Assembly (NCBI GenBank): GCA_001819985.1
Contig: MHOE01000025.1
Location: 5,738-69,737 of the forward strand
Origin: Candidatus Spechtbacteria bacterium RIFCSPHIGHO2_02_FULL_43_15b
Lineage (GTDB): Bacteria > Patescibacteriota > Minisyncoccia > Spechtbacterales > HO2-43-30
DNA: 64,000 nt
Reading direction: 5' to 3'
The first letter of the stretch is position 1, and the number at the start of each line of letters is the position of its first letter. The notes under the pieces were generated by a model. It ran no database searches. It saw only the letters and a program-made list of their open reading frames with translations, and was not told the DNA's origin. Positions 49,782-63,991 of the stretch are shown piece after piece. Made by a program: the position numbers and the translations under genes.

Positions 49782-50993
49782 TTAAGCTCCTTTTCTTTGC
49801 AATAAACAATCGTTCTCATTTCCGGACAAATCGTGCGCCACTTCCCCGAAATTTTCGTCAAAGGGCCAATAACCAATGATTTTTTCCTTTGATATAACTG
49901 GCGGATTATTCGTTGCGCCGCTATACAGCGAAAAAATTTCATCTTCACTTAGGTCCCTGTTGAATATGTAAAGTTCATCCAGGTAACCGTCATAATTGTA
50001 GCAAGGCCCGCTGAACGGGTCTCCCTTAAATACGCACTTTCCCAACACTAATGGATATTCGGATCCGAAAACGCCTAGCAGATCATCGCTGGAATTAAAC
50101 TTAAGATCATAATCTTCCCATGATTTATCTAACTCGCCGTCAAAGTATGAAGTTATTATCCAGTTTCTGATTTCTTGAACGATTCCGTAATCGTCAACTT
50201 TACTGTGATTTTCATACTTAAACACTATTGCTATATGATGCCAAGTGTTATCTATAAAACCGCTCACTCCTCCTCCGCTAATAGAAACTTTTGAATCATC
50301 CGCTTGGAATAGTATGCTACCGTTTTTACTTTCACCTCTTAATGTCATGGACCACCATCGTTCCCTTGGTCTTCCCTTAAAAACAATGTCCTTGGGGTAA
50401 AGAGGAGCATTCATATCCTGCTTTATCCAAGCCGAAATTGTCATATCCGAAGTGCCTAGTAACCGAGTTGAAGAGGAATTACCACAATTAAGCCAAGCGT
50501 CTTCTGATCCAAAAAAAATAGAATTTCCGATAACTCCTTCGGCCCATTTGACAGTACGGCCATCTGATATAAACCCCTCCCAAGGCGGAGGAACCCCCGT
50601 CTCTTTAATGATTTCTTCTTTCGGCGGGACCTCTAGATCCTCGACAGATTTTTCTCCGTTGCTTGGATTTTCCGGCAAGGGATTTGCGACTAAATCTTCT
50701 GAATTATCTTCTTCGGTCGAATTTTTTTGGTCGTTCCGGTCGCCCTGGCTAGTAGTATCGTCTAAAACTTCGGCACCCCCATTTTCCAGATTATCCGGAT
50801 TCATAATTATTTTTTCGCTATTTTCCGTAAGAAGATTTTTAGAAATATTGCCTTCGTTTTGACTTCCGATATATGATAGGCCATCAAACTGCTCGACTTC
50901 GCCATTGGTATGAATTGATTTTACAAAAAACGCGGCGCTTAAAACTAAAGCGCTTATGCCAAATGTTATAATTTTGATAAAACTAAAATTCAT
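49782..50993 (-). CDS. Secreted LamG/concanavalin-like domain protein
   Basis: Signal peptide, an acidic low-complexity linker and a C-terminal jelly-roll-like region. Confidence 0.4.
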   Translation of the reverse strand: MNFSFIKIITFGISALVLSAAFFVKSIHTNGEVEQFDGLSYIGSQNEGNISKNLLTENSEKIIMNPDNLENGGAEVLDDTTSQGDRNDQKNSTEEDNSEDLVANPLPENPSNGEKSVEDLEVPPKEEIIKETGVPPPWEGFISDGRTVKWAEGVIGNSIFFGSEDAWLNCGNSSSTRLLGTSDMTISAWIKQDMNAPLYPKDIVFKGRPRERWWSMTLRGESKNGSILFQADDSKVSISGGGVSGFIDNTWHHIAIVFKYENHSKVDDYGIVQEIRNWIITSYFDGELDKSWEDYDLKFNSSDDLLGVFGSEYPLVLGKCVFKGDPFSGPCYNYDGYLDELYIFNRDLSEDEIFSLYSGATNNPPVISKEKIIGYWPFDENFGEVAHDLSGNENDCLLQRKGA

Positions 50994-52476
50994 TGAGTAT
51001 CGCCTCTTTTATGTTTTGACTGCTTAAATCCATAGAGTATGCAAAATTTTTTTCGATTCCCTGTTCAATACTTGCCCTTATACTTACCCTATCAAACGCG
51101 CCAAGATAATTCAATACTTTTTGTCTATCCGGTTTATAACCGCTGATTACCTTTCCCATTGCTGACCTCGAAGCAATAATGTCATATATCTTAAATATCT
51201 CACTGCAATCTTTATATGAAGGATATCCAAAAACCATCGAGGGCTTGCCGTTTAATACCGCTTCCCAAGAGCCTGTACCCGCAACCGTTGCGACACACTG
51301 ACATCTTTCGATAAATTTGTTTGACAGAATTTCCGGCGGCACAAGATAGACATTTCTATACGAGGACAATTTTTTGTAGTAACCGGCATATCTACCCTGA
51401 TGGGCATGGACTCCTCCTTTTGTCCATTGAGACAAATGCTCTTTCGCGTATATTACCCAATCATCCGGAATTGAATTTGATAATATATCGAACATTAAAA
51501 ATTGATCTGTAAATATCCCTCCCTCGGGCGAAGTCGAGCGCTCGGGCTGGTACTGAAGAGGTGCGTAAATAAATTTTTTATTCCAATCAACTTCAACTTG
51601 AAGATTCCTATATTCTTTCTCGAATAATTTTTTTGCCGTCGCCCACTCTCGTAATTTAACCTCATAATCTATACCTTTATAATCGGGGTCAAAGCTTAGC
51701 AACCCGGACTCTGCCGAAAATAAACGCTTGAAATAAGCCCTCCCTCTCCTTGCAATGCTTCCGTCTTTAATACTTGAAAGGACCTTGCCAATACTAGGCG
51801 CTTTTAAGGATCGAGCTACCTGATCTAATTCATGAACTGTTTTATATGGAAACTTTGAAACCTCGGAAGGACTTGTCTGAAAAATATAGTAATCACGAAT
51901 ATCTTTACTTAAATCTTCCAGTTTATAGTTGTGCCCCTTTGCGATTTCAGCGATAAGTTTTTCGGAACCAATTTTGATATCTCGAGCGAGCAAATACCTA
52001 TCCGGTATCCTTGTTAGCATAAATACCAAAGTTTTTATGCCAAATTCTTTACAAACGGAATATAGAACAAAATCATAAACAAGATGAGGGGTGGTGGAAA
52101 AAATTACGGCATCTGGATTCATTGACTTAAGCACGCCTCGCCAGTATTTTAACAGGTCATAATAAAGCCGCTTTCTCCGCATAAAATGCACCTTAGAATA
52201 ATCAATGCGATTCATCATCGTCATGGTAATAGATTCGCACGCAAAAAATTTTTCAATGATCTCTTTTCCAAGCGGCTCAAAATTTATAGTGTTTACTTCT
52301 TCGGGAGGTATGGCTTTTACGGCATCGAAACTCGAATGAAAGATTGTTTTTGGAAATTCATCTTTACGGGATGTCCCACCCGTCCAATACAAAATTTCAC
52401 AGCCATTTTGCTGTAAATTTTTAGCGACCTCTCCTAAATTAGGCGCGGACCATTCGATTAAAAAAATTTTAGACAT
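50983..52476 (-). CDS. Capsule-polysaccharide-biosynthesis-like protein (KpsS/KpsC Capsule_synth-like)
   Basis: IYAPLQYQPERSTSPEGG resembles the LQvxxD block of that family. The family call is tentative. Confidence 0.3.
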   Translation of the reverse strand: MSKIFLIEWSAPNLGEVAKNLQQNGCEILYWTGGTSRKDEFPKTIFHSSFDAVKAIPPEEVNTINFEPLGKEIIEKFFACESITMTMMNRIDYSKVHFMRRKRLYYDLLKYWRGVLKSMNPDAVIFSTTPHLVYDFVLYSVCKEFGIKTLVFMLTRIPDRYLLARDIKIGSEKLIAEIAKGHNYKLEDLSKDIRDYYIFQTSPSEVSKFPYKTVHELDQVARSLKAPSIGKVLSSIKDGSIARRGRAYFKRLFSAESGLLSFDPDYKGIDYEVKLREWATAKKLFEKEYRNLQVEVDWNKKFIYAPLQYQPERSTSPEGGIFTDQFLMFDILSNSIPDDWVIYAKEHLSQWTKGGVHAHQGRYAGYYKKLSSYRNVYLVPPEILSNKFIERCQCVATVAGTGSWEAVLNGKPSMVFGYPSYKDCSEIFKIYDIIASRSAMGKVISGYKPDRQKVLNYLGAFDRVSIRASIEQGIEKNFAYSMDLSSQNIKEAILNEF

Positions 52477-52525
52477 AAATTAAAAAAGTACCATCGCAGT
52501 ACACTTTTTTATAACCTAATTTGCG

Positions 52526-53662: not shown

Positions 53663-53668
53663 TTTATT

Positions 53669-54262
53669 TTATCTCTCTTTTTCTAAATAGTCCGCAAGAA
53701 CTGAAACCTTCGTGTCCCACCCATTGCTTAGTAAATGCAATAACGGCTCTTTATCGGCAGATTTATGATACGAACCCTCGTCCGCATTTTGTCTGCGCCT
53801 TGAGTACTTGCCTATGCGGATATTTTTCCATTCCTGCTTGAATAGATTTTTTATCTCCGCATGCAATTTTTCGTAGCTTGTTTTCAGTGTATCATTTTCT
53901 GAAAATTCGACCTCTTTCTGGACGATAATATCGCCCGTATCAAGACCCTTATCTATGCAATGAATGGTAACGCCTTTAGCCGTTTTGTCAATAAAACTCC
54001 AAAAATTTGGATCCGCTCCCTTGTTCCACGGCAAATAGCTTATATGCAGATTTACAGCCCCATATTTGGGATAATTAAAAACCGCCGGACGTATTATAAA
54101 TCTATAATTATAGCTTACTATAATATCGGGCTTGAATTCTTCCAGATCTTCCGAAACGACTTTTCTATCTATAAATAAAACCCTCCCTTCTTCATCGCGA
54201 AAATAGTTGTATAAATCCACGGAGTGTTCGCTGTTTTTGTTTCCGAGAAACAGAACATTCAT
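53669..54262 (-). CDS. Sugar N-formyltransferase (Fmt N-terminal-domain family)
   Basis: 197 aa with an SYNYRFII...HISYLPWNKG formyltransferase core (HxSLLPxxxG-like). Confidence 0.6.
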   Translation of the reverse strand: MNVLFLGNKNSEHSVDLYNYFRDEEGRVLFIDRKVVSEDLEEFKPDIIVSYNYRFIIRPAVFNYPKYGAVNLHISYLPWNKGADPNFWSFIDKTAKGVTIHCIDKGLDTGDIIVQKEVEFSENDTLKTSYEKLHAEIKNLFKQEWKNIRIGKYSRRRQNADEGSYHKSADKEPLLHLLSNGWDTKVSVLADYLEKER

Positions 54263-54945
54263 AACGCGTAAGTTCTTATTTTTTCTATTTCTAAAATTTT
54301 ATCGGGATGGAGCTTTTTCAATTGCTCAATCCCATTTTTTACTTTGGAATCAACACTAGACAAGCTTTCCTTGCTCCTGCAATAAGTAAACAGCGCCTTA
54401 GAATAATGGTATCCCTTCCAGTCGGTATGCCTCAAGAGAATATCGTATTCTGGAAAAAGTAGTCCCTCCGTCCACAGCCTTTCACCTACCGAAAACCTCC
54501 TGAACATCATCCCGCCTGCAATAGTTTCAAAAATATTCTTAGGGCTTACCAGAATTTTCTTGCCTTCGAACTCTTCGTAGTAATCCGAGTAAACGAAATC
54601 TATACTTTTATCCGCATCAAGTATTTTTGAAAGATCTCCGATTAAAGTCGGCAAAAAATAATCGTCGTAATCAAGGAAAACAATATACTTGCCTTTGGAA
54701 ACGGCGAAACCATTATTTGCCGCCGCAACCGCTCCTTGATTTTTCTCATCTACAACTCTTATGTTTTTGTGCTTATCGGCATAACTTCTTACAACATCTA
54801 GAGTTCCATCGCGCGACCCGTCATTAACTGCGATAATCTCGAATTTATTCTTTGGAAAATCCTGATATATAGCGCTTTCTATCGCTCTGCCAACAATTTT
54901 TTCGGAATTATAAGCGCGTATTATTATTGAAACTTTAGGAATCAT
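54259..54945 (-). CDS. Family 2 glycosyltransferase
   Basis: VSIIIRAYNSEKIVGRAIESAIYQ...IAVNDGSRDGT. Confidence 0.75.
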   Translation of the reverse strand: MIPKVSIIIRAYNSEKIVGRAIESAIYQDFPKNKFEIIAVNDGSRDGTLDVVRSYADKHKNIRVVDEKNQGAVAAANNGFAVSKGKYIVFLDYDDYFLPTLIGDLSKILDADKSIDFVYSDYYEEFEGKKILVSPKNIFETIAGGMMFRRFSVGERLWTEGLLFPEYDILLRHTDWKGYHYSKALFTYCRSKESLSSVDSKVKNGIEQLKKLHPDKILEIEKIRTYAL

Positions 54946-56101
54946 AATTTTGATATATCTTAATCAGGTTTCCCTCTTCGTCTCTCCTTAATCTTCCGTT
55001 GCCATCCGCTTCAAATATTGCTTTGTCGGTAAACGAATCTACGACCCGAAAAAATTCTTCTTCGGTAATGTTGAAGTAATTTATAAAATCCCTCAAAATA
55101 TGCCTATACAATTTACCGTCATACTTTTTAACAAGCTCCATTCCTTCATCTCGAGTAATTCTGCCGTTCCTTATATCCAGACACGCGTGATCTGTCGCTC
55201 GCCCAAATCCAAATTTCACATATTTCAAATAATCATGTATGGAAACTAGAGCGTCATCCAAGTTTTCGTAGTTTGTGTATGTGCCCTCAATCGGGCCATC
55301 CTCTTTCACTCTAAATCCATATCGCCTCATGAGCTCGACTTGCGGCCTAGCATCCCACTTAAAATAATAACCCAAAAATATGCCTGTTATACCGGCATCT
55401 TTAAGTTCTTCTTCTAATGGATAGCAATAAGACACCAAATCCTCTTTTGTTATTCCGTCAACGCCTACCATATCTTCAACCCTTTCGCCCAGCAGACCTC
55501 CAAATTCTTCAAGCCATCTCCTGTCTAAGACATTTCTCATTCGAGAAGCTTTAGGTCCGCCATATTCAAGCTGTGAATTTTCTCCCCATATCACTAAAGG
55601 GATTTTGAATTGAACGGCAACTCTTATAGGTATTGTAAATATTCCTATGTGGTTTGGCCATTCATGATCGCCAACTTTTCTAAATCCTTCCAGGCACATT
55701 TTTTTATAAACTGCCGGATTTTTTTTGAATTCGATCATATCACCGAACTGTCTGCAATTCTCAAGATTTTTTTGGCCAAGGACATTTCGCTTTGTTGCTT
55801 CAAAATTGACAAGTAATGGATTAAAACCGTATTTTCGCGCCATATAAGCCTGATAATGGCTGTCTTTACCGCCGCTTACGGGTATTATGCAATCATAATT
55901 TCCCGAATTTTTCCCCTTGAATTTTTCTACCACCGCCTCAAACTCTCTTTCTCGCTCATTCCAATCTATAGTATTCTTGAGTTCCGCAGATCTGCAGGCA
56001 TCGCAAACTCCCGCTTCATCAAAAAAGAGGTCGGGTTTTGTATTTGGCATTACGCACTTTTCGCAATACTTAAACATTTTAATTTGTCCTCTTTTGGACA
56101 A
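54935..56101 (-). CDS. N-acetyl-sugar amidotransferase (PP-loop ATP pyrophosphatase; WbuX/PseA/LegP-like)
   Basis: N-terminal CEKCVMPNT...CDAC zinc ribbon and a PP-loop SGGKDS. Confidence 0.75.
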   Translation of the reverse strand: MSKRGQIKMFKYCEKCVMPNTKPDLFFDEAGVCDACRSAELKNTIDWNEREREFEAVVEKFKGKNSGNYDCIIPVSGGKDSHYQAYMARKYGFNPLLVNFEATKRNVLGQKNLENCRQFGDMIEFKKNPAVYKKMCLEGFRKVGDHEWPNHIGIFTIPIRVAVQFKIPLVIWGENSQLEYGGPKASRMRNVLDRRWLEEFGGLLGERVEDMVGVDGITKEDLVSYCYPLEEELKDAGITGIFLGYYFKWDARPQVELMRRYGFRVKEDGPIEGTYTNYENLDDALVSIHDYLKYVKFGFGRATDHACLDIRNGRITRDEGMELVKKYDGKLYRHILRDFINYFNITEEEFFRVVDSFTDKAIFEADGNGRLRRDEEGNLIKIYQNYDS

Positions 56102-56113: not shown

Positions 56114-56812
56114 TTATTTCTTTAATAAAAACATCTGACTTGCATTCCCATCGTTCATTTTGTATTTTTCTTCCCTCGCTAATTTCAAATCTGAAAAATT
56201 CTTTAGATAAAAATCGCAGAAATCGCGCTTCCACAAAAATCCTTTCTTGCCTCTATACTCGATATCCGTAAGCTTTGGCGCGTAATATTCCATTCCCCAG
56301 ATATATCCGCCCGAAACCCTAACAATCTCTTTCGTAGCTTTTTTAACATCTTTAGGCGCGATATGTATTAAAACTCCCGAGGTAAAGACCAAATCAAAAT
56401 AATTTTTTTTGAAAGGCAAATCAAACGCGGACCCTTTTATTATATCAATTTTGGGATGAATTTTCTTTGCCGCCTCGACCGCGTATTCGTTTACCTCGAT
56501 TCCTAATAAATTCGTAAATCCCATCTTTCTTAAAAGTTCGAGCTGGAGGCCGATATTCGCGCCTACTTCGAGTATTTTAACATCTTTGCTTATGCCCGAT
56601 AAAAATTTACGATTCATCGCAGTTCTTAAAACGCCGTATTGCTTTTTATACAAACCGTCTAATTCTTTTACCGATTGCGGGTTTCTATCCGTGTAACTAT
56701 TACCGTCCCTGCCGGACCAAAAATTAATTTGTTCGGTTATTTTTTGCATATGCCAAAAATTAATTACATTAAAAATTGTGCCACTTTCTACCCAAAGAGT
56801 CACACTGCTCAA
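56114..56812 (-). CDS. Class I SAM-dependent methyltransferase
   Basis: ILEVGANIG motif I with acidic motif II/III. Confidence 0.6.
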   Translation of the reverse strand: MSSVTLWVESGTIFNVINFWHMQKITEQINFWSGRDGNSYTDRNPQSVKELDGLYKKQYGVLRTAMNRKFLSGISKDVKILEVGANIGLQLELLRKMGFTNLLGIEVNEYAVEAAKKIHPKIDIIKGSAFDLPFKKNYFDLVFTSGVLIHIAPKDVKKATKEIVRVSGGYIWGMEYYAPKLTDIEYRGKKGFLWKRDFCDFYLKNFSDLKLAREEKYKMNDGNASQMFLLKK

Positions 56813-56816
56813 AATA

Positions 56817-57566
56817 TTATAATCTGGCTTCTATCCCATTTTCTACCAGATATTCTTTGATATTCCTCGGTGTCATTTGAGTATATTGGAAAATGCTCGC
56901 GGCCGCAACGGCAGAAGCCCTGCCGATCTTTATAGCCAAAATAAAATCGTCAAGTTTTCCAGCTCCCCCACACGCGATAACCGGAATGTTTACCGCATCG
57001 GAAACGGACTTTACTAATTCCAAATCGTATCCTTCCATTAAACCTTCTTTGTCTATTGAAGTTAAAAAAATCTCTCCCGCTCCTCTTTGCTCAACCTCTT
57101 TCGCCCAATCAACCGCAGACCAGGAAGTTTCAGATTTGCCGCCGGCGCTAAAGACCTTATATTTTCCGCCAATCAACCTCGCGTCAATTGACGAAACTAC
57201 GCATTGGCTTCCAAATTTCTTCGCTCCTTCGGATATAATATCGGGGGTTTCTATCGCCGATGTATTTATCGAAACTTTATCAGCCCCTATTCTTAAAAGC
57301 AAATTTATATCGTCTAGGGACTTTACTCCTCCGCCTAAGGTCAATGGCATAAAGCATTCTTTTGAAATTTCTTCCAAAAGCCATTTTTTAATACCGTCTT
57401 TCCTCGCGTCCAAATCGAGAAAAATCATCTCATCCACATCCCTTGAGTTAAAAACTCTAACTGCTGAAATGTAACTTCCGATATTTCTGTGTTCTGAAAA
57501 ATTAACGCTTTTTACAAGGCGCAAATCTTTTATTGTAAGGCATGGAATAACTCGCGTTTTAAGCAT
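56817..57566 (-). CDS. Imidazole-glycerol-phosphate-synthase cyclase-subunit homolog (HisF/WbuZ-like)
   Basis: TIM-barrel HisF signature RVIPCLTIKD...GGGV...AIKIGRASAVAAAS. Confidence 0.8.
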   Translation of the reverse strand: MLKTRVIPCLTIKDLRLVKSVNFSEHRNIGSYISAVRVFNSRDVDEMIFLDLDARKDGIKKWLLEEISKECFMPLTLGGGVKSLDDINLLLRIGADKVSINTSAIETPDIISEGAKKFGSQCVVSSIDARLIGGKYKVFSAGGKSETSWSAVDWAKEVEQRGAGEIFLTSIDKEGLMEGYDLELVKSVSDAVNIPVIACGGAGKLDDFILAIKIGRASAVAAASIFQYTQMTPRNIKEYLVENGIEARL

Positions 57567-57582: not shown

Positions 57583-58188
57583 TCAGCGTTGCTTCAGAAA
57601 ATTCTTTAGAAACTGAAGCCCGCTCTTTTGACTTTTTTCCGGATGGAACTGGACACCCCAAATATTGTCTTTATTGACAACAACCGGAAATTCCTCGCCG
57701 TATTCAGATGTCGCTAAAACACACTTTTCCGCGTCGGGCTGTAAATAATAACTGTGAACAAAATAAAAAACATTAGATGCAATATTATCTAGAATTTTAT
57801 TATCGGACTTAACTTTAATATTGTTCCACCCGATATGCGGAAGTTTATTTATCCCCGCCCTTATCTTCACCGTGCGCCCATGTATCCATCCCAGTCCTTT
57901 ATTTACGCCGCCCTCATCGCCCTCATCGGCCAGAAGTTGCATACCTAAACATATTCCGAGGAACGGCTTTCTCCCTCTTAATACTTCCTCCTCGAGTATA
58001 TTCGCCAAACCCGACTCCTTTAGATTAGAAATCCCGTCGCCGAATGAACCAACTCCGGGCAATATCAAATGACTGGACATTTTTACATCATCGCGATTAT
58101 TAGATACTAAAACATCAGCGCCTAAAAATTCTAATGCGTTTTTCACGGAACCGGTATTACCCATTCCATAATCTATTATGACGATCAT
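57583..58188 (-). CDS. Glutamine amidotransferase class I (HisH/WbuY-like)
   Basis: MIVIIDYGMGN and a catalytic GICLGMQ Cys. Confidence 0.8.
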   Translation of the reverse strand: MIVIIDYGMGNTGSVKNALEFLGADVLVSNNRDDVKMSSHLILPGVGSFGDGISNLKESGLANILEEEVLRGRKPFLGICLGMQLLADEGDEGGVNKGLGWIHGRTVKIRAGINKLPHIGWNNIKVKSDNKILDNIASNVFYFVHSYYLQPDAEKCVLATSEYGEEFPVVVNKDNIWGVQFHPEKSQKSGLQFLKNFLKQR

Positions 58189-58227: not shown

Positions 58228-58977
58228 TTAAGGTTTAAGCGCTATTTGTTCGCAATGCGCGTTTATACTTGCGATTTCCGGGTTTTTATCCAAAAATAAC
58301 AACGCGTCCTTGACATTGATAATACCGCTACCGTTATACAGGGCTTTATAAATTTCGGCTACCAATTGAAAATCCTCGCCGTAATCAACAGTTAAACGAT
58401 AATCCCTTCTGTATTCGTCCGAGGCCTCTACGGGTTCTCCGATTTTGAATTCTCCTTTTTTATTCTCCCAGATATACGGGGTAACATGTTCTCGTTCGTA
58501 TTTTTCCTCCGCGTTTTTGTGCGCGATTTCCAGCGCCTTAAAAGAAAACACTTCCGTGTCCAACCCCCTTGGGAATGTTCGAATTGAAATATTGCTTAAA
58601 TAATCGACGCCTTTATGCTCTGCGAATTTTTTTATGCATTCATCTATTATAGCAGGATCAATAAGCGGACAATCGGAAGTTACTCTAACTATGATATCGG
58701 AATCAAAACATTTTGCCGTGCTGTAATACCTGTCCAGCACATCTTCCTCGCTTCCCCTGAAATATTTGATGCCGTTCTCCGCGCAAAATTTTTCCACTAC
58801 ATCGTCCTGTTTTAACACCGTAGTCGCAACAACAACATCATCCGCGAGCACAGCGCCTCTTGCTCTTTTTACCACATGATAAAGCATCGGGTATCCGCAT
58901 AAATTCTTCATAACCTTGCCTGGCAAGCGACCTGAACCCATTCGAGCTTGAATAATGATGTCAGTTTTAAGTTTCAT
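58228..58977 (-). CDS. Cytidylyltransferase (PseF/LegF/SpsF-like CMP-nonulosonate synthetase family)
   Basis: IIQARMGSGRLPGK N-terminus. It overlaps the aminotransferase stop by 4 nt. Confidence 0.65.
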   Translation of the reverse strand: MKLKTDIIIQARMGSGRLPGKVMKNLCGYPMLYHVVKRARGAVLADDVVVATTVLKQDDVVEKFCAENGIKYFRGSEEDVLDRYYSTAKCFDSDIIVRVTSDCPLIDPAIIDECIKKFAEHKGVDYLSNISIRTFPRGLDTEVFSFKALEIAHKNAEEKYEREHVTPYIWENKKGEFKIGEPVEASDEYRRDYRLTVDYGEDFQLVAEIYKALYNGSGIINVKDALLFLDKNPEIASINAHCEQIALKP

Positions 58978-60110
58978 ACGATTTTTTTAAGTATATTTAT
59001 AACCTCGTCAACTTCTTTCTTCCGAAGAGACGGGTAAAGAGGCACGCTGATTTCTTCTCGGTAAAAACTTTCTGTTTTCGGAAAATCGCCGAATTTGTAC
59101 CCGAATCGATTTTGATAATACGGATGAGTGTGTATGGGTATAAAATGAACTTGCGGAAAAATATTGGCATACTTAAATTCTTTGAATAATTTTCTTTTAT
59201 CAATGCTCGCATCCGCCAATCTCAATGAGTAAAGGTGCCAAGCGCTTTTGCACCCCTTCCTTTCACGCGGCAGAACAAAACGAGGATCTTTATCTAATTT
59301 TTCCGTATAATACTCCGCGATGCTTCTTCGCGCTTTGATTAAATTATCTATCCGCTTAATCTGCGAAATCCCTAGAGCCGACTGGACATCCGAGAGACGG
59401 TAATTATACCCAAGCTCCTGCATTTCAAAATACCATGGATCGATTTTGCTCGATTTATCAACAAAATTTTTGGGGTCTTTCGTTATCCCGTGATTTCTGA
59501 ATAAAAGAGCTCTCTCGTAAAACTTCCTGCTGTTTGTGACTATCGCGCCGCCTTCGGCGGTAGTTATGGCTTTTGCCGGATGGAAAGAAAATACCGTTAT
59601 ATCCGCCTGTCCGCCGATACGCCTACCCATATATTCAGCGCCCAGCGAATGGCACGCATCATTGATCAGTGTCAACCCGTGCTTCTTAGACAAAAATTTT
59701 AACTCCTTCAGAAATGACGGATGTCCCGCATAATCAACAGTTATAACGGCTTTTGTTTTGCTGTTTATTTTGCTTTCAACCGCGATAGGATCCAGAAGGC
59801 CAGAGCTGTAATCGATATCGGCAAAAACAGGTTTTGCGCGTTCATACAAAATACAGTTTGCCGTGGCAACAAAAGAAAACGGAGTTGTTATGACCTCATC
59901 GTCTTCGTTTACACCCGCGGCGAAAACTGCGCAATGAAGCGCGGAAGTCCCCGAGTTTAACACCACCGCGTATCTCGTTTCTGAATAACTTTTAATCAAA
60001 CTTTCGAATTCTGAAACCGCGGAACCTTGCGTAAGAAATCTGCCGTTAAGAATCTTAGCTACCGCATTTATATCGCTTTTTGAAATAGTATGCTTTGTAT
60101 AGGGAATCAT
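58974..60110 (-). CDS. DegT/DnrJ/EryC1/StrS PLP-dependent sugar aminotransferase (PseC/LegC-like)
   Basis: 378 aa with an aminotransferase fold V signature and a FHPAKAITT Lys. Confidence 0.85.
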   Translation of the reverse strand: MIPYTKHTISKSDINAVAKILNGRFLTQGSAVSEFESLIKSYSETRYAVVLNSGTSALHCAVFAAGVNEDDEVITTPFSFVATANCILYERAKPVFADIDYSSGLLDPIAVESKINSKTKAVITVDYAGHPSFLKELKFLSKKHGLTLINDACHSLGAEYMGRRIGGQADITVFSFHPAKAITTAEGGAIVTNSRKFYERALLFRNHGITKDPKNFVDKSSKIDPWYFEMQELGYNYRLSDVQSALGISQIKRIDNLIKARRSIAEYYTEKLDKDPRFVLPRERKGCKSAWHLYSLRLADASIDKRKLFKEFKYANIFPQVHFIPIHTHPYYQNRFGYKFGDFPKTESFYREEISVPLYPSLRKKEVDEVINILKKIV

Positions 60111-60185
60111 TTCTTCCGATTAGATTCTGAACGGCGGCACACGACAGCAAATGCGTATTTCGCGCCAAAGCTAAATGTCCAAAAT

Positions 60186-61181
60186 CTAGATTTCATCTAT
60201 AATGTTTTTCATATCTCGTATTGAAAGTAGATGAATGTTGCTCTTGCTATCATAAGAAAAACCATCCTTGACCCTCTTTCCCCGACTTTCAGCTTTTTCG
60301 GACCACCAATTAAAATCCGGCTCAATTATGTACCTGTCGTCAAAATCTCTTGTTCTTCTTCCTTCGTCTTTCGTAATTAAGAATTCATCTATTTTTTCAC
60401 CCGGGCGTATTCCTATGGTTCTAACGGATCTCTTGTATCCGAAAGCTTCTATCAAATCCGTCATCTTCATGCTTGGAATTTTGGGGACAAATATTTCTCC
60501 GCCTTTCATAATCTCGAGGGACTTCACCACAAATTTTGCCGCTTCGTCCAAAGTGATCCAAAATCTTGTCATCCGCTTATCGGTAAGCGTCAATCGTTCG
60601 CCTCTTTCTATTTGACTTTTGAAAAGCGGGATTACGCTCCCTCTACTGCCTATGACATTTCCGTATCTAACAACGGAAAAAATCGGATATTTCTTCCGTG
60701 TTGCCTGGCCGCTATACGAATTAGCTTGAATAAAAAGTTTTTCCGCGCAAAGTTTAGTGGCACCGTAAAGATTAACGGGATGAACCGCTTTATCCGTACT
60801 TAATGCTATAACCTTAGGAATTCTCAAATTAAGTGCCGACTCTATAACATTTACCGCGCCATCGACATTTGTCCTTATTGCTTCGATGGGATTATACTCG
60901 CATACAGGCACCTGCTTCAACGCGGCGGCGTGTATTAAAATATCAACTCCGCCACAAGCCCGCTCAAGTCGTTTCTGATCTCTTACATCTCCGATAAAAA
61001 AACGCAACCTCTTATCGCCATTAAAAGCAACAGACATATCGTGCTGTTTTGCTTCATCGCGGCTGTATATGCGTACGGTATTTGGCTTCTCGCTTGCAAG
61101 AATTTTCCTCACAAATGCCTGGCCAAACGACCCGGTACCCCCGGTAATTAATACTGTTTTACCCATTAATATTCCTTTCAT
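60186..61181 (-). CDS. UDP-N-acetylglucosamine 4,6-dehydratase (PseB/CapD short form)
   Basis: KTVLITGGTGSFG and a YxxxK site in a 331-aa protein. Confidence 0.8.
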   Translation of the reverse strand: MKGILMGKTVLITGGTGSFGQAFVRKILASEKPNTVRIYSRDEAKQHDMSVAFNGDKRLRFFIGDVRDQKRLERACGGVDILIHAAALKQVPVCEYNPIEAIRTNVDGAVNVIESALNLRIPKVIALSTDKAVHPVNLYGATKLCAEKLFIQANSYSGQATRKKYPIFSVVRYGNVIGSRGSVIPLFKSQIERGERLTLTDKRMTRFWITLDEAAKFVVKSLEIMKGGEIFVPKIPSMKMTDLIEAFGYKRSVRTIGIRPGEKIDEFLITKDEGRRTRDFDDRYIIEPDFNWWSEKAESRGKRVKDGFSYDSKSNIHLLSIRDMKNIIDEI

Positions 61182-61295
61182 ATTCCTTAATAAATAACAT
61201 TATTTGATTACTTTGTCCATTATGGTATAGTGTATGTCCGTACGAATACATAGGTTCAACCTGTGTATTCATTTTAGGTATAATGCTATGTTACT

Positions 61296-61345
61296 AGGTT
61301 TTAGGCGAGTGCGTATTCGCCATACTTACCTAACACCGAAAACCG
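61296..61345. repeat. Family R intergenic element with internal palindrome
   Basis: GGTTTTAGG-GGCGAgtgcgtatTCGCC-...CCTAACACCGAAAACC. Confidence 0.45.
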
Positions 61346-61358
61346 ATATGAAAATCTG

Positions 61359-62688
61359 CTTATATGCGCATGATTGGAATTACATAGATAACTACGAACC
61401 GGTTACAAAGATACTGGAATCTCAAAACATAAATTTTGATATTTTGGTGCTCAAAAAAGCTAGGCACCAAAGCTTTTTGTACTTCTCAAGAAAATACAAA
61501 AAGAAATATGGCGCCAAATTCATAACCATTTATGACATAAAATTCGGAAAGGAAATAATTTCCCTTTCCAAGTTGCCCGTAATCGGATTGCCAGCGGAAG
61601 TAAGTTTGGGAACTTCCCTGTTGAAATATTTTTTAGTGAAAAAAAAATATACGCATATCGTGGTTAGTGATGACCGCATAATAGAAGCGTGTATTCTAAT
61701 AAAGGCCGCGAATGAAGCTCGTATCAAAAATGTCGTCCTATATCCAGTAGAAGGTCTCCAGATAGTAAAGAGCTTAATGCTAACTAAAATCCAAGCGCAA
61801 AAATCCATGCCCGAAAGCAAAAAGAGACGGGTCGCGTCTTCTATCTCAAGGGTTATCTATCCTAAAAATTCTGCGATTTGTGAAGGCAAGCCATTTTATT
61901 TTTTTCCGCCCAATGAGGTTCTAAGATTGGGCGGTATGGAAATATTTCCTAAAAATCCGTGGGTGAGAGGCGCGAATAAATTAACCAAAATAGCCGCGAA
62001 TTCTATGATGCAAGCACGCGAAAATTATGTGCACGGAGTAAACGCCAATAAAATCTTTATTACAGGATTTCCGCCGCACGACAAGCTATTGGATTTAATA
62101 AAAAACAGGGAACAAAATAAAGCTAGAATAAAATCGGCTTTGCATTTAGATCCGAATAAAAAAATATTTCTCATCGCGGGAACAAACTATAGCGATGACT
62201 TCGATCCCCCTAGATTCTCCGAAATCGACAAGGATATAAGCAGGGTTATTTCCATACTTTCGTACAAAATAGGACCGAGTTTTGATTTTATCTTCAAAAT
62301 ACACCCCAGAGTTGATATAGCTGGCCAGGAAAATATTTTTTCCGATCAGGTGAAGGAAAAGATAAAATTTGTAAAAGATGAATTTAGTATATATGAACTC
62401 GTCACAATATCCGACGCTATACTGAATTTTATATCGGCATCTATGGACGCGTCTCTTATAACAGACGCTCCAATATTTTGTTACAAAATACCCGGAAGAA
62501 TGATTTTCGAGCAAGAGATCGCGAGATACAAATCAATAACCCCCCTGTATAATATAGTCGATTTAGAAAGAAACTTGTCTATTTTGGGAAAAATTCCGGC
62601 TTTTGATGAAATACTACGAAAAGAGGACAGAAAAAATTTTGGTATATTCGACGGCAGAAATGCCGAGAGATTCGTGAGTTTGCTTTAG
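61359..62688 (+). CDS. TagB/TagF-like CDP-glycerol glycerophosphotransferase-family protein
   Basis: KIFITGFPPHD...KKIFLIAGTNY resembles the Glyphos_transf C-terminal region. The ORF track starts at 61234, but that would read through the repeat and TATAAT-like signals, so the start was moved to 61359 on that basis. Confidence 0.4.
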
Positions 62689-62756: not shown

Positions 62757-63098
62757 GTACGCTCCTCCTCTTATCTTCACATCAACAAGTTTATTCCCCC
62801 TATCTACTACGGGAACCACATTTATATTTGAGTGCTTTTCAAAAAACCTTTCGACATTTGTATCGTCGCTTTCTATTGATAAAAAATTCGTATTCATCGC
62901 CTTTCGAACTGGCGCAATAATTGTTGCCCCTTTCACCATAGCGCGTCTTATATCGCCATCACTCAAAACCCCGACAACAAGCGTGCTGTCATCAACTACA
63001 ATAAGGCATCCGCGGTGATTGGCGGTAATTTTTTGCATAGCGACTTTAAGCGTAGAATCAGCGTCTATTGTGTAATCGAAGTTTTGCGGATTTGTCAT
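62754..63098 (-). CDS. CBS-pair domain protein
   Basis: Two CBS motifs (GCLIVVDD..LVGVLSDGDIRR ; NVVPVVD..KLVDV). Confidence 0.7.
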   Translation of the reverse strand: MTNPQNFDYTIDADSTLKVAMQKITANHRGCLIVVDDSTLVVGVLSDGDIRRAMVKGATIIAPVRKAMNTNFLSIESDDTNVERFFEKHSNINVVPVVDRGNKLVDVKIRGGAY

Positions 63099-63190
63099 AA
63101 AGGTTTTAGATGTTAGATTCTAGGTTTTAGGTTCTTTAGGAATCTAATGCTTTTGATGGCATCCGTGCTAGTCCTAAAATCTAACCCTTA
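63099..63190. repeat. Family R intergenic inverted repeat
   Basis: GGTTTTAGATGTTAGATTCTAGGTTTTAGG...CCTAAAATCTAACCC. Confidence 0.5.
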
Positions 63191-63991
63191 GTATGTTATT
63201 CTTTTTACTAACAGTTTATCATCTATCTTGGCGCTTGCCAAAATATCAACTATCCTCTTTGAGGACTTCCCATCTCCGTAAGGATTTACGCATCTTATAA
63301 CCTTCTTTCTAAAATTTGGGCTCATTGATTTCTTTATTGCCTCCTCAATAGATTTTTCCGAATAATCCGCATTTATAACATTTATGCTCTGAAGACGCCC
63401 CCTTTGCCTGTTTCCGATATTAACCGCGGGAACCTTAAATGTGGGGGCTTCTATTATTCCGCTCGATGAGTTTCCGACAATGGCGCTAGCGTTACTCAAA
63501 AGTCCGGCATAATCCTGCCTTTTGAGATTCGGATATATGCTCATAAACGGCTGTTTGTACTCCATTATCTTTCTTCTTATTAAGTTTGACCCCGCGTCTG
63601 AATTATTAAGAAGCAAAACTGTCGGATATTTCAGTTTGCATACTGCCCTCATAAGCTCGTCCATTTGCCTCTCCGTATCATTGAACTCTTCGGTTACGGA
63701 ATGGTACATCAATAGAATAAACGGCTTCCCCTCTTTTAGATTAAATTTTTTGTAAACTTCTTTCGCGGGAGTGGCGTAACTCTCAACAAGTTCATCGAGC
63801 ATGGGCGCTCCGACATTAAAAACTCTCTGTCTCTCTTCTCCCATTTTCAAAACTCGTGCTTCCGCGTCTTTGTTAGCGCAAAAATGAATATGCGCGAATT
63901 TTGTAATTGCATGGCGTGATACACCGTCTATGTTGCCCGATACTTCTCCCGCTTGAATATGCGCCACCGGAATATACATATGCGCCCCCAC
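63188..63991 (-). CDS. UDP-N-acetylglucosamine 2-epimerase (hydrolysing), NeuC/LegG-like; 5' end truncated by the window edge
   Basis: HIQAGEVSGNIDGVSRHAITKFAHIHF and GNSSSGIIEAP...NIGNRQRGR match the NeuC family. The ORF is open to the window end. Confidence 0.75.
   Translation of the reverse strand: MGAHMYIPVAHIQAGEVSGNIDGVSRHAITKFAHIHFCANKDAEARVLKMGEERQRVFNVGAPMLDELVESYATPAKEVYKKFNLKEGKPFILLMYHSVTEEFNDTERQMDELMRAVCKLKYPTVLLLNNSDAGSNLIRRKIMEYKQPFMSIYPNLKRQDYAGLLSNASAIVGNSSSGIIEAPTFKVPAVNIGNRQRGRLQSINVINADYSEKSIEEAIKKSMSPNFRKKVIRCVNPYGDGKSSKRIVDILASAKIDDKLLVKRITY

What the first reader, a model, noticed from the sequence alone, without database searches (positions are those of the whole stretch)
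49782..63991. Complete-looking acetamidino-nonulosonic acid (Pse/Leg-type) pathway with formyl- and methyl-transferases in a CPR-like genome
Co-directional, mostly overlapping genes encode a PseB/CapD-like 4,6-dehydratase, a DegT aminotransferase, a NeuB-type synthase with SAF domain and a PseF/LegF-like cytidylyltransferase. A NeuC/LegG-like hydrolysing 2-epimerase lies at the window edge. Together these give the core of a 5,7-diamino-3,5,7,9-tetradeoxynonulosonate route. The pathway also carries a PP-loop N-acetyl-sugar amidotransferase together with HisH and HisF homologs. In Legionella, E. coli O145 and P. aeruginosa this WbuX/Y/Z-type trio converts an N-acetyl into an N-acetimidoyl group. 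A sugar N-formyltransferase and a SAM methyltransferase are also present; N-methyl-acetimidoyl legionaminic acids are known from Campylobacter. The classical N-acetyltransferase (PseH/LegH) is absent, so the second amine may be formylated instead. A GT2, a KpsS-like protein, a TagF-like transferase and a secreted LamG protein suggest the sugar is polymerised or attached at the surface. Sialic-acid-like surface decoration is notable in a lineage thought to be an obligate episymbiont.
Basis: partly seen in the sequence, partly recalled or inferred. Interest (0 to 1): 0.65.

Follow-up and report, generated by a model that had tools for sequence, protein, structure and literature searches.

The report
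Modified pseudaminic acid operon in Parcubacteria
A tiny-genome groundwater bacterium (Candidatus Spechtbacteria, CPR) carries a real 12-gene operon for a formylated, amidinated sialic-acid-like sugar (pseudaminic acid), built from known enzyme families but lacking the usual UDP-sugar hydrolase PseG, whose place is taken by a small GT2 protein.

Summary
The gene calls are correct. The pathway is pseudaminic acid (Pse), not legionaminic acid: PseB, PseC and PseI pass NCBIfam equivalog cut-offs, and their best PDB matches are the H. pylori and other Pse enzymes. The formyltransferase is 57% identical to crystallised PseJ, the known replacement for the acetyltransferase PseH (it gives Pse5Ac7Fo). 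WbuX, HisH and HisF (acetamidino) and a Pse-associated methylase are present.

Three corrections:
- NeuC is not part of this operon. It belongs to a separate NeuC-NeuB-cytidylyltransferase module beyond the window edge. A third NeuB, fused to an AP_endonuc_2 domain, lies at 38.4 kb.
- The pathway is not complete by the textbook. PseG is absent from the window and from about 9 kb past its edge.
- The operon's cytidylyltransferase is a non-PseF clade that accompanies Pse genes in many phyla.

Across 80 related loci, three proteins occupy the PseG position and never co-occur: PseG (40 loci, almost all non-CPR), DUF218 (17, mostly CPR) and this small soluble GT2 (3, plus the window). Each occurs fused to the N-acyltransferase somewhere. 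This suggests non-orthologous replacement of PseG, which is inferred and untested. The 497-aa protein has a CMP-Kdo-transferase fold and is a likely Pse transferase. The host is Candidatus Spechtbacteria. No paper found links nonulosonic acids with CPR.

The parts
60186..61181 (-). PseB, UDP-GlcNAc inverting 4,6-dehydratase (first gene of the operon)
   Evidence: TIGR03589 scores 470.1 bits against a cut-off of 407.75. Best PDB match is 2gn4, H. pylori PseB, E=1e-107, 54% identity. FnlA scores 256/730 and LegB 57/475, so both fail.
58974..60110 (-). PseC, UDP-4-amino-4,6-dideoxy-beta-L-AltNAc aminotransferase
   Evidence: TIGR03588 scores 460.4 against 423.5, while LegC scores 234 against 420. 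Best PDB match is 2fn6/2fnu (which I recall as H. pylori PseC; the PDB name is only 'aminotransferase'), E=1e-68. Overlaps the next gene by 4 nt.
58228..58977 (-). CTP_transf_3 cytidylyltransferase, inferred CMP-Pse synthetase (functional PseF of a non-PseF clade)
   Evidence: PF02348 scores 121 bits. The PseF model gives only 33.7 against 205.7, and KdsB-like models give 77. Best PDB match is 6oew 'Cytidylyltransferase' (which I recall as a Leptospira protein), E=8e-43. Homologues (32-61% id) accompany PseB/PseC/PseI in most of 80 loci from many phyla. Apart from loci that also carry a second NeuB/NeuC module, loci have either this clade or a classical PseF-like enzyme.
57583..58188 (-). HisH-type class-I glutaminase (WbuY-like), ammonia donor for amidination
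   Evidence: TIGR01855 scores 236.7 against 105.4. Co-occurs with WbuX and HisF in related Pse loci.
56817..57566 (-). HisF-like WbuZ subunit of the acetamidino system
   Evidence: TIGR03572 WbuZ scores 292.5 bits (cut-off 299.7) and is the best model. AglZ/HisF2 scores 259.5.
56114..56812 (-). SAM methyltransferase, 'pseudaminic acid biosynthesis-associated methylase'
   Evidence: TIGR03587 scores 190.7 against 112.05. Start codon uncertain: other assemblies-229 aa. Orthologues occur with and without WbuX, so the methyl acceptor is unresolved.
54935..56101 (-). WbuX/PseA-type PP-loop N-acetyl-sugar amidotransferase
   Evidence: TIGR03573 scores 387.5 against 203.2. PP-loop SGGKDS at residue 76 and an N-terminal CxxC...CxxC motif. 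67-73% identical orthologues in other CPR Pse loci.
54259..54945 (-). Small soluble GT2 (GT-A fold, 228 aa), candidate replacement of the PseG UDP-sugar hydrolase (inferred)
53669..54262 (-). PseJ, N-formyltransferase replacing PseH
   Evidence: PDB 6ci4/6ci2 'formyltransferase PseJ', E=5e-52, 57% identity over 146 aa. PF00551 scores 71.9 bits. PseJ is cited as the Pse5Ac7Fo enzyme in PMC11040635.
52526..53662 (-). PseI, pseudaminic acid synthase (NeuB + SAF)
   Evidence: TIGR03586 scores 383.0 against 340.25, while NeuB_NnaB scores 255 against 399.65. Best PDB match is 8h2c, pseudaminic acid synthase, E=2e-73, against N. meningitidis NeuB at 3.5e-34.
50983..52476 (-). KpsS/KpsC-like GT-B protein, candidate CMP-Pse transferase
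49782..50993 (-). LamG-domain protein with an N-terminal hydrophobic anchor or signal and an acidic N/S/E-rich linker; last gene of the operon; possible acceptor or surface protein (speculative)
   Evidence: PF13385 scores 43.3 bits. Hydrophobic segment at residues 1-27. Overlaps the transferase gene by 11 nt. Not conserved in related loci.
61234..62688 (+). TagB/TagF-like GT-B transferase, divergently transcribed; second candidate NulO transferase
   Evidence: PF04464 scores 43.7 against 22.1. Weak match to NF046086, BFO_1060 family (35.5 against 200). BFO_1060 is listed with the T. forsythia Pse/Leg-derivative transferases Tanf_01245 and TFUB4_00887, whose knock-outs lose the sugar (PMC5420450).
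62754..63098 (-). Stand-alone CBS-pair protein; last gene of the neighbouring NeuC-NeuB module, not of the Pse operon
   Evidence: PF00571 scores 46.5 bits; matches the C-terminal part of the KpsF model. Gene order.
63188..64000 (-). 3' part of NeuC (hydrolysing UDP-GlcNAc 2-epimerase); belongs to a separate Neu/Leg-type module continuing beyond the window
   Evidence: The partial gene scores 286 bits and the full-length gene (L007 8757-9911) 400.6 bits against 235.9 on TIGR03568. Directly preceded by NeuB#3, with a 7-TM protein, a cytidylyltransferase and a TagF-like gene further upstream.
38425..40341 (+). Context: second NeuB-type synthase fused to an AP_endonuc_2 (xylose-isomerase-like TIM barrel) domain; not part of the Pse operon
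   Evidence: PF03102 scores 289.6, PF08666 26.9 and PF01261 78.3 bits. NeuB_NnaB scores 348 against 400 and PseI 240.
47139..49780 (+). Context: classical-type NulO cytidylyltransferase, Gfo/Idh/MocA oxidoreductase and PtmA-like SDR, convergent with the Pse operon
   Evidence: PseF model 148.8 against 205.7; GFO domains; FlagModPtmA 134.8 against 350.

Best explanation
Window 49782-61181 (minus strand) is one operon of a Parcubacteria (Candidatus Spechtbacteria) genome. It makes, activates and probably transfers a doubly N-modified pseudaminic acid.

Steps shown by family membership:
- PseB converts UDP-GlcNAc to UDP-2-acetamido-2,6-dideoxy-beta-L-arabino-hex-4-ulose.
- PseC aminates C4.
- PseJ formylates that amine in place of PseH acetylation. 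The formyl donor N10-formyl-THF is assumed from the family.
- PseI condenses the released 6-deoxy-altrosamine derivative with PEP to give Pse5Ac7Fo.

Inferred steps:
- Release of the sugar from UDP, normally done by PseG, is done by the small soluble GT2 encoded between wbuX and pseJ, using water as acceptor.
- The operon's non-PseF CTP_transf_3 enzyme makes the CMP-sugar.
- WbuX, with HisH/HisF supplying ammonia from glutamine, converts the only remaining N-acetyl group (N5) to acetamidino, giving Pse5Am7Fo. At which stage this happens is unknown.
- The Pse-associated methylase adds a methyl group at an unknown position.
- The KpsS/KpsC-like 497-aa GT-B protein, and/or the divergent TagB-like protein, transfers the sugar from CMP to a surface glycan or protein.

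The NeuC gene at the window edge belongs to a second nonulosonic acid module, and NeuB at 38.4 kb to a third. The island therefore encodes up to three nonulosonic acids.
For: - Subfamily assignment. PseB 470/408, PseC 460/424 and PseI 383/340 bits on NCBIfam equivalogs, while the Leg, Neu and FnlA models fail. Best PDB hits are named or recalled Pse enzymes: 2gn4 at 1e-107, 2fn6 at 1e-68, 8h2c at 2e-73.
- PseJ. 57% identity to PDB 6ci4. The role of PseJ is stated in PMC11040635.
- Tailoring genes. WbuX 387.5/203 with a PP-loop, HisH 237/105, WbuZ 292.5/299.7, methylase 191/112.
- Operon structure. Gaps of -11 to +75 nt.
- Synteny. The same gene order (PseB-PseC-CT-HisH-HisF-MT-WbuX-GT2-formyltransferase-like-PseI, then TagF-like genes, CT and NeuC) occurs in two Kaiserbacteria genomes.
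- Cytidylyltransferase. This clade co-occurs with PseB/C/I across phyla.
- GT2 in the PseG position. Three mutually exclusive classes occur among 80 loci: PseG 40, DUF218 17, GT2 3 (plus the window). Each is found fused to PseH or PseJ somewhere. Six further metagenome contigs carry the GT2 inside Pse-type clusters, and none has PseG or DUF218.
- Host. The contig also carries SecA, MurB and an AddA-like helicase. GC is 0.38-0.45 across the window except for one 2-kb bin at 0.49. The same proteins are found on 13 or more contigs, one of them 193 kb.
Against: - There is no biochemical or mass-spectrometric evidence of any kind.
- PseG and PseH are both absent, so two of the six canonical steps rest on substitutes, and only the PseH substitute has a characterised homologue.
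- GT2 is a very large transferase family. The fold search cannot tell a hydrolase from a transferase, and the closest structure (6p61) is uncharacterised.
- The cytidylyltransferase fails the PseF model (34 bits).
- WbuZ is 7 bits under its cut-off.
- In C. jejuni, PseA is cited for Pse5Ac7Am (PMC11040635), i.e. the N7 acetyl. Here N7 would be formylated, so the amidination site (N5) is a deduction.
- The methylase occurs in related loci without WbuX, so N-methylation of the amidine is not implied.
- Whether a Spechtbacteria cell has N10-formyl-THF is unknown.
- Promoter and terminator scans are at chance level.
Confidence: 0.8

Rival explanations
1. A legionaminic-acid or mixed Pse/Leg route. 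NeuC/LegG at the window edge would act as the nucleotide-sugar hydrolase of the same pathway.
For: A NeuC gene that passes TIGR03568 lies about 2 kb upstream of pseB. PseG is missing. PtmA-like SDR and Gfo/Idh/MocA genes, which I recall from Leg loci, lie nearby.
Against: - The LegB, LegC and NeuB/LegI models all fail on the operon's enzymes, while the Pse equivalogs pass.
- NeuC is separated from pseB by an oppositely oriented gene. It sits directly downstream of its own NeuB, in a module with its own cytidylyltransferase.
- GT2-type Pse clusters L015, L090, L092 and L093 show no NeuC in the DNA examined.
- From established enzymology, NeuC-type enzymes epimerise C2 and act on alpha-D-configured NDP-sugars, not on the beta-L-altro intermediate.
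Confidence: 0.06
2. The GT2 is an ordinary glycosyltransferase that builds the acceptor glycan. The UDP-sugar is released by something else, for example spontaneous or promiscuous hydrolysis, the KpsS-like GT-B protein, or an enzyme encoded elsewhere in the genome.
Against: - The GT2 is only 228 aa, with no membrane or acceptor domain.
- In seven of the ten places examined it is adjacent to the N-acyltransferase and/or NeuB rather than to other GTs.
- Two orthologues are fused to a PseH-like GNAT, which mirrors the PseG-PseH and DUF218-PseH/PseJ fusions.
- It is strictly exclusive with PseG and DUF218.
Confidence: 0.3
3. The route is truncated. The cell stops at UDP-4-formamido-4,6-dideoxy-L-AltNAc (or its amidino derivative), which the GT2 transfers directly into a glycan. 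PseI and the cytidylyltransferase would serve another substrate.
For: There is no PseG. There is a formal analogy with ArnA-formyltransferase plus ArnC (a GT2) in the Ara4FN pathway. ArnA is the top NCBIfam hit of the formyltransferase, and ArnC is a weak hit of the GT2.
Against: - PseI passes its equivalog cut-off and lies 6 nt downstream of pseJ.
- The GT2 lacks the membrane helices of ArnC.
- The cluster type always retains NeuB/PseI and a cytidylyltransferase.
Confidence: 0.07
4. Binning or assembly artefact. The island is not from a CPR bacterium, or is a recent foreign insertion.
For: Glycan islands are frequently horizontally transferred. Some related MAG labels look unreliable (for example 'Gammaproteobacteria' loci L034/L036/L040 with CPR-like content).
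Against: - The same contig carries SecA, MurB and an AddA-like helicase.
- GC is 0.38-0.45 across the window, apart from one 2-kb bin at 0.49.
- Identical proteins are found on 13-24 independently assembled contigs, one of 193 kb.
- The closest relatives of PseI are nearly all from CPR-labelled genomes, and the named closest relatives of the GT2 and the 497-aa protein are Spechtbacteria, Parcubacteria or Patescibacteria entries.
Confidence: 0.03

Closest known systems
PseJ-type pseudaminic acid pathway giving Pse5Ac7Fo (formyltransferase PseJ; PDB 6ci2/6ci4/6ci5/6edk; source organism recalled as Anoxybacillus kamchatkensis)
   Same: PseB, PseC and PseI, with an N-formyltransferase 57% identical to PseJ in place of the acetyltransferase PseH. 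PMC11040635 names PseJ as the enzyme that accounts for Pse5Ac7Fo.
   Different: Here the pathway also carries an acetamidino module and a methylase. It lacks PseG, uses a non-PseF cytidylyltransferase clade, and sits in a CPR genome.
WbuX/WbuY/WbuZ (E. coli O145), WbpG/HisH2/HisF2 (P. aeruginosa) and AglX/Y/Z (Methanococcus) acetamidino systems, and PseA/PtmG of Campylobacter jejuni
   Same: A PP-loop amidotransferase of TIGR03573 with adjacent HisH- and HisF-like subunits. PtmG (amidotransferase) and PtmH (methylation) of the C. jejuni Leg locus are described in the SugarBase preprint.
   Different: The substrate here would be a Pse already formylated at N7, so amidination must fall on N5. 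That matches T. forsythia Pse5Am7Gra, whereas PseA is cited for Pse5Ac7Am. From recall, C. jejuni PseA/PtmG work without dedicated HisH/HisF. Whether the methylase is a PtmH equivalent was not tested.
Canonical PseBCHGIF pathway of Helicobacter pylori / Campylobacter jejuni
   Same: The first two enzymes and the synthase are clear orthologues (54% identity to H. pylori PseB).
   Different: PseH and PseG are absent. The PseF model is not met by the operon's cytidylyltransferase.
Acinetobacter baumannii KpsS1 pseudaminyltransferase and the KpsS/KpsC/WbbB retaining beta-Kdo transferases
   Different: Sequence similarity to solved KpsC is marginal (E=0.03). The protein's own Pfam score is below threshold. 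No direct comparison with the KpsS1 sequence was possible. Where the family consensus reads KEHP, the window protein reads KEHL.
Tannerella forsythia Pse5Am7Gra / Leg-derivative locus with the Tanf_01245 / TFUB4_00887 (BFO_1060 family) TagB-like transferases
   Same: A TagB/TagF-like GT-B gene lies next to the NulO biosynthesis genes, and the Pse there is amidinated at N5. The TagF-like ORFs here hit NF046086 weakly.
   Different: Scores of 35 and 58 bits are far below the family cut-off of 200. The N7 substituent is glyceroyl there and formyl here.
Candidatus Kuenenia stuttgartiensis Leg-like cluster with a deacetylase and a formyltransferase (SugarBase preprint, 2026)
   Same: An environmental, non-pathogenic bacterium with a formyltransferase embedded in a NulO cluster, and CMP-NulOs found formylated. 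A PIG-L deacetylase plus formyltransferase-like genes also occur in relatives of this locus, L027 and L090.
   Different: That cluster is Leg-type (legB/legC/legG). The window locus is Pse-type and has no deacetylase.

Membership tests
Pseudaminic acid biosynthesis (PseB-C-H-G-I-F) | PseB: inverting UDP-GlcNAc 4,6-dehydratase | tested here: met
   TIGR03589 470.1 against 407.75. 2gn4 at E=1e-107, with the STDK and YGATK motifs aligned.
Pseudaminic acid biosynthesis (PseB-C-H-G-I-F) | PseC: C4 aminotransferase | tested here: met
   TIGR03588 460.4 against 423.5. 2fn6 at E=1e-68.
Pseudaminic acid biosynthesis (PseB-C-H-G-I-F) | PseH: GNAT N4-acetyltransferase | tested here: not met
   A domain HMM built from 55 PseH domains gives no hit at E<=1e-6 in the window or in L007/L008, which reach about 9 kb past its edge. 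No GNAT Pfam hit on the scanned ORFs between 16.3 and 64 kb or in the precomputed Pfam lists for the genes beyond the edge. The slot is filled by PseJ.
Pseudaminic acid biosynthesis (PseB-C-H-G-I-F) | PseG: GT-B UDP-sugar hydrolase | tested here: not met
   A domain HMM built from 40 PseG domains gives no hit in the window or in L007/L008. The rest of the genome was not searched.
Pseudaminic acid biosynthesis (PseB-C-H-G-I-F) | PseI: PEP-condensing synthase of the Pse subfamily | tested here: met
   TIGR03586 383.0 against 340.25, with NeuB at 255 against 399.65. 8h2c at E=2e-73.
Pseudaminic acid biosynthesis (PseB-C-H-G-I-F) | PseF: CMP-Pse synthetase | tested here: inconclusive
   The operon enzyme scores 33.7 against 205.7 on TIGR03584. 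Its clade is nevertheless the cytidylyltransferase found with PseB/C/I in most related loci. Two classical-type enzymes score 149 and 182 bits but sit in the other NulO modules.
PseJ-type N-formyl pseudaminic acid variant | Formyltransferase orthologous to PseJ, encoded in the Pse cluster in place of PseH | tested here: met
   6ci4/6ci2 at E=5e-52, 57% identity over 146 aa. The gene lies 6 nt upstream of pseI. Activity not testable here.
WbuX/WbuY/WbuZ acetamidino (amidotransferase) system | PP-loop N-acetyl-sugar amidotransferase | tested here: met
   TIGR03573 387.5 against 203.2. SGGKDS at residue 76.
WbuX/WbuY/WbuZ acetamidino (amidotransferase) system | Adjacent HisH-like glutaminase and HisF-like WbuZ subunit | tested here: inconclusive
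   HisH passes at 236.7 against 105.4. WbuZ scores 292.5 against 299.7, just under its cut-off but the best-scoring model.
Legionaminic acid pathway (LegB-C-H-G-I-F) | LegB, LegC and LegI subfamily membership of the dehydratase, aminotransferase and synthase | tested here: not met
   LegB 56.9 against 475, LegC 234 against 420, NeuB/LegI-type model 255 against 399.65.
Legionaminic acid pathway (LegB-C-H-G-I-F) | LegG/NeuC hydrolysing 2-epimerase as part of the same gene set | tested here: not met
   NeuC is present (400.6 against 235.9), but it lies in a different transcription unit with its own NeuB and cytidylyltransferase.
KpsS/KpsC (Capsule_synth, PF05159) CMP-ulosonate transferases | Family HMM match and GT-B fold closest to CMP-Kdo transferases | tested here: inconclusive
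BFO_1060 / TagB-like nonulosonic acid transferases | NF046086 family match | tested here: not met
   35.5 bits (window 61234-62688) and 58.3 bits (L007 4419-5789) against a cut-off of 200. Only the general Glyphos_transf domain passes (43.7 against 22.1).

The most novel reading that the evidence does not exclude
CPR/Patescibacteria have replaced PseG, the UDP-sugar hydrolase of the pseudaminic acid pathway, at least twice with unrelated proteins. One is a small soluble GT-A (GT2) enzyme that would use water as acceptor, found in this genome, in Kaiserbacteria and in about 30 metagenomic relatives. The other is a DUF218 (YdcF/ElyC-like) domain, found in most other CPR Pse loci.

If true, this would give DUF218 a first biochemical role in nucleotide-sugar metabolism. 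It would also add a GT2 hydrolase to nonulosonic acid biosynthesis, in organisms that devote a 40-kb island with three NeuB-type synthases to sialic-acid-like surface sugars.
Probability: 0.4. Interest if true: 0.65.

Novelty: new variant of a known kind. Interest (0 to 1): 0.5.

Why it matters
CPR bacteria are thought to live attached to host cells, so their surfaces are the interface of that lifestyle, yet little seems to be known about their glycans. This locus gives concrete targets: predicted masses, and enzymes that can be expressed.
- A roughly 1-Mb-class genome appears to spend more than 40 kb on up to three nonulosonic acids.
- One of them is a net-neutral (amidinated) and formylated pseudaminic acid.
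- No paper found in the held library links nonulosonic acids with CPR.

The comparative result bears on enzymology. PseG is nearly absent from CPR Pse loci, and its position is filled by DUF218 or by a small GT2. This points to two untested enzyme activities and would explain why Pse pathways in these genomes look 'incomplete' to annotation pipelines.

The individual tailoring chemistries (formyl, acetamidino, methyl) are already known elsewhere, so the finding extends known biology and does not overturn it.

Tried and rejected
- Promoter and terminator consensus scan of 48.9-64 kb: counts at chance level (42 against 39 expected; 18 against 15), so uninformative.
- Rfam gathering scan and tRNA scan of the whole window: nothing found, so no RNA marker for taxonomy.
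- First PseG/PseH HMM iteration used whole ORFs. Because most non-CPR loci have PseG-PseH fusions, the two profiles merged. It was redone with domain-bounded profiles.
- Structure and fold search of the GT2 confirmed a GT-A fold but cannot separate hydrolase from transferase.
- Sequence search of the 497-aa and 484-aa proteins against the PDB gave only marginal KpsC hits (E about 0.03-0.04).
- Literature searches combining pseudaminic, nonulosonic or sialic acid with CPR, Patescibacteria or Parcubacteria returned nothing relevant. The held library lacks most subscription-journal papers, and the original PseJ paper did not turn up.
- I considered NeuC as the missing hydrolase and rejected it on gene organisation and on its absence from other GT2-type loci.
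- I considered contamination and rejected it.
- Not done: a reference phylogeny of the three NeuB paralogues; comparison of the methylase with PtmH; Pfam scan of window 1-16 kb.

Full report
**What is there**

The window is part of contig MHOD01000032.1 of assembly GCA_001821805.1. The same genes occur on at least 13 other assembled contigs, one of them 193 kb long. NCBI names the encoded proteins as coming from Candidatus Spechtbacteria bacterium RIFCSPHIGHO2_02_FULL... Of the species listed, only ..._02_FULL_43_15b (Patescibacteria, Parcubacteria group) fits that name.

Window 16-30 kb holds housekeeping genes: SecA, MurB, a hibernation factor and an AddA-like helicase. GC is 0.38-0.45 throughout, apart from one 2-kb bin at 0.49. 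The glycan island is thus native to this contig.

**The operon**

Twelve minus-strand genes run from 61181 to 49782. Gaps between them are -11 to +75 nt, and four pairs overlap. Pfam and NCBIfam give the following:

| Gene | Model | Score / cut-off (bits) |
|---|---|---|
| PseB | TIGR03589 | 470 / 408 |
| PseC | TIGR03588 | 460 / 424 |
| CTP_transf_3 cytidylyltransferase | PseF model | 34 / 206 |
| HisH | TIGR01855 | 237 / 105 |
| HisF-like | WbuZ (best model) | 292.5 / 299.7 |
| Methylase | TIGR03587, 'pseudaminic acid biosynthesis-associated methylase' | 191 / 112 |
| WbuX | TIGR03573 | 387.5 / 203 |
| GT2, 228 aa | PF00535 | 100.6 / 23.3 |
| Formyltransferase, 197 aa | PF00551 | 71.9 / 26.1 |
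| PseI | TIGR03586 | 383 / 340 |
| 497-aa protein | Capsule_synth | 16.9 / 20 (weak) |
| LamG protein | PF13385 | 43.3 / 27.6 |

WbuX has the PP-loop SGGKDS at residue 76. The LamG protein has one N-terminal hydrophobic segment. A TagF-like gene (61234-62688) is transcribed divergently from pseB.

**Pse, not Leg**

The Leg and Neu models fail on these enzymes: LegB 57/475, LegC 234/420, NeuB/LegI-type 255/400, FnlA 256/730. The best solved-structure matches point the same way:
- PseB: 2gn4, H. pylori, E=1e-107, 54% identity.
- PseC: 2fn6, which I recall as the H. pylori enzyme, E=1e-68.
- PseI: 8h2c, 'pseudaminic acid synthase', E=2e-73, against 3.5e-34 for meningococcal NeuB.

**The formyltransferase is PseJ**

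Its best PDB match is 'formyltransferase PseJ' (6ci2/6ci4), E=5e-52, 57% identity over 146 residues. PMC11040635 names PseJ as the enzyme that accounts for Pse5Ac7Fo.

1. NeuC is not part of this pathway.
   - Fetching about 9 kb beyond the window edge (L007/L008) shows NeuC (full length 400.6/235.9 on TIGR03568) directly downstream of a third NeuB-type synthase (306 bits on the NeuB model).
   - Upstream of that NeuB come a 7-TM protein, a classical-type NulO cytidylyltransferase (182 bits on the PseF model) and a second TagF-like gene.
   - NeuC and the CBS gene are separated from pseB by the oppositely oriented TagF-like gene.
2. A second NeuB (348 bits on the NeuB model), fused to an AP_endonuc_2 TIM-barrel domain, lies at 38425-40341.
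   - Next to it are GDP-mannose 4,6-dehydratase, a flippase, a further cytidylyltransferase, a Gfo/Idh/MocA oxidoreductase and a PtmA-like SDR.
   - The island (about 32.7 kb to beyond 64 kb) therefore holds three NeuB-type synthases and three cytidylyltransferases, one per synthase.
3. The pathway is not canonical-complete.
   - Domain-bounded HMMs built from 40 PseG and 55 PseH domains of related loci find neither in the window or in L007/L008.

**The cytidylyltransferase**

Homologues of the operon's 249-aa enzyme (32-61% identity) accompany PseB/PseC/PseI in most of 80 related loci. These include canonical non-CPR clusters such as PseB-PseC-[PseG-PseH]-PseI-CT in Stygiobacter (L038) and Rosettibacter (L080). 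Apart from loci that also carry a second NeuB/NeuC module, loci have either this clade or a classical PseF-like enzyme. I therefore take it to be the CMP-Pse synthetase. This is an inference from conserved association.

**What fills the PseG step**

Among the 80 loci found with PseI, three protein types occupy the same position and never co-occur:

| Protein in the PseG position | All loci | CPR-labelled (28) | Other (52) |
|---|---|---|---|
| Canonical PseG | 40 | 1 (Peribacteria, L045) | 39 |
| DUF218 domain, next to or fused with PseH, PseJ or PseI | 17 | 14 | 3 |
| Window-type small GT2 | 3, plus the window | 3 | 0 |
| None detected | 20 | 10 | 10 |

Several of the loci with none detected are truncated.

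All three proteins occur as fusions with the N-acyltransferase:
- PseG-PseH in more than 25 loci.
- DUF218-PseH in L016 and L022.
- PseJ-DUF218 in L036.
- GT2-GNAT(PseH-like) in two metagenomic orthologues, P0017 and P0029.

The contigs of six metagenomic GT2 orthologues were examined (L090-L095). All lie in clusters with a CTP_transf_3 gene and either PseB/PseC-type genes, a NeuB gene, or both. In five of the six the GT2 is adjacent to a GNAT, a formyltransferase or NeuB (in L090 it is fused to the GNAT). None has PseG or DUF218. Two Kaiserbacteria genomes (L019, L027) reproduce the window's gene order, including GT2 followed by a formyltransferase-like gene and PseI.

The GT2 is soluble, with a DYDD motif and a confident GT-A model (pLDDT 96). 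Its closest structure is an uncharacterised 228-aa Leptospira protein.

I conclude that the GT2 is most likely the pathway's UDP-releasing enzyme. This rests on comparative genomics only, and I put it at about 0.4-0.45. The fold cannot distinguish a hydrolase from a transferase.

**Transfer**

The TagF-like ORFs weakly match NCBIfam's BFO_1060 family (35 and 58 bits against 200). PMC5420450 lists BFO_1060 with the T. forsythia Pse/Leg-derivative transferases Tanf_01245 and TFUB4_00887, whose knock-outs lose the sugar. Either protein, or both, could attach the sugar. The acceptor is unknown. The co-transcribed LamG protein, with an acidic N/S/E-rich linker, is only a speculative candidate.

**Predicted chemistry**

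- Shown by family membership: UDP-GlcNAc passes through PseB, PseC and PseJ to UDP-4-formamido-4,6-dideoxy-beta-L-AltNAc, and PseI makes the C9 acid.
- Inferred: hydrolysis by the GT2; CMP activation by the 249-aa enzyme; amidination of the remaining N5-acetyl by WbuX with HisH/HisF, giving Pse5Am7Fo; methylation at an unknown site.
- The methylase occurs in related loci without WbuX, so an N-methyl-acetimidoyl group, as in C. jejuni Leg, is possible but not implied.

**Novelty and interest**

Every chemistry involved has a precedent: PseJ formylation, PseA/WbuX amidination, PtmH-type methylation, and a formylated NulO in Kuenenia. Pse synthase genes are frequent in CPR genomes, so the locus is not unique.

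No paper in the held library connects nonulosonic acids with CPR. The near-absence of PseG from CPR Pse loci, with DUF218 or a GT2 in its place, was not mentioned in the papers I read; I did not search the literature for it specifically. I rate the locus a new variant of a known kind, with interest 0.5.

Noticed in passing
L016 3329-4387; L020 8758-9360; L022 3147-4235; L023 5999-6637; L036 2938-4170; 17 loci in all: In most CPR pseudaminic acid loci a DUF218 (YdcF/ElyC-like) domain sits next to, or is fused with, PseH, PseJ or PseI. It never co-occurs with PseG. It looks like a non-orthologous replacement of the UDP-sugar hydrolase, which would be a first biochemical role for DUF218.
   Followed up: partly
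window 38425-40341 (+): A second NeuB-type synthase (NeuB+SAF, 348 bits on the NeuB model) is fused to an AP_endonuc_2 / xylose-isomerase-like TIM barrel. GDP-mannose 4,6-dehydratase follows directly at 40381-41427. An Uhrbacteria locus (L046 11126-12355) has a PseH-like GNAT fused to the same kind of domain. The substrate and the role of the extra domain are unknown.
   Followed up: partly
L007 4419-10345 (beyond the window's 3' edge); window 62754-64000: A third nonulosonic acid module: TagF-like transferase, classical-type cytidylyltransferase, a 7-TM protein of unknown function (L007 6665-7477), NeuB#3, NeuC and a stand-alone CBS-pair protein. NeuC, NeuB and a cytidylyltransferase would be enough for CMP-Neu5Ac, but NeuB#3 is below the equivalog cut-off (306/400), so the sugar is unassigned.
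   Followed up: partly
window 41424-45324 (+): A CotH-kinase/beta-helix protein (786 aa), a VTC-domain protein and a DUF4956 protein are inserted in the middle of the glycan island, between the GDP-mannose dehydratase and the flippase. Any relation to the glycan genes is unknown.
   Followed up: no
L027 7973-9978; L090 10152-11526: Relatives of the locus carry a PIG-L/LmbE-type deacetylase next to one formyltransferase-like gene (L090) or between two (L027), just upstream of PseI. This suggests de-N-acetylation and re-acylation of the second amine, like the deacetylase plus formyltransferase reported for the Kuenenia NulO cluster.
   Followed up: no
window 35045-35899 (-): A UDP-glucose/GDP-mannose dehydrogenase-like ORF of only 284 aa. 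It matches the NAD domain from profile position 70 and the central domain, and no C-terminal domain was hit. It is possibly a truncated or decayed gene.
   Followed up: no
window 22001-24000, ORF 23104-24021 (-): A local GC rise to 0.49 against about 0.41 elsewhere. It coincides with a 305-aa ORF with no Pfam match and with long overlapping ORFs in other frames. There is no Rfam, tRNA or tandem-repeat signal.
   Followed up: partly
window 32695-34989 (-) and 37053-38444 (+): A Wzy_C/O-antigen-ligase-like protein with C-terminal TPR repeats and a polyprenyl glycosylphosphotransferase (TIGR03025, 367 bits) lie in the first 6 kb of the island from about 32.7 kb. Together with the flippase at 45402-46643 they suggest a lipid-linked, Wzx-dependent assembly route for whatever glycan carries the nonulosonic acids.
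   Followed up: no
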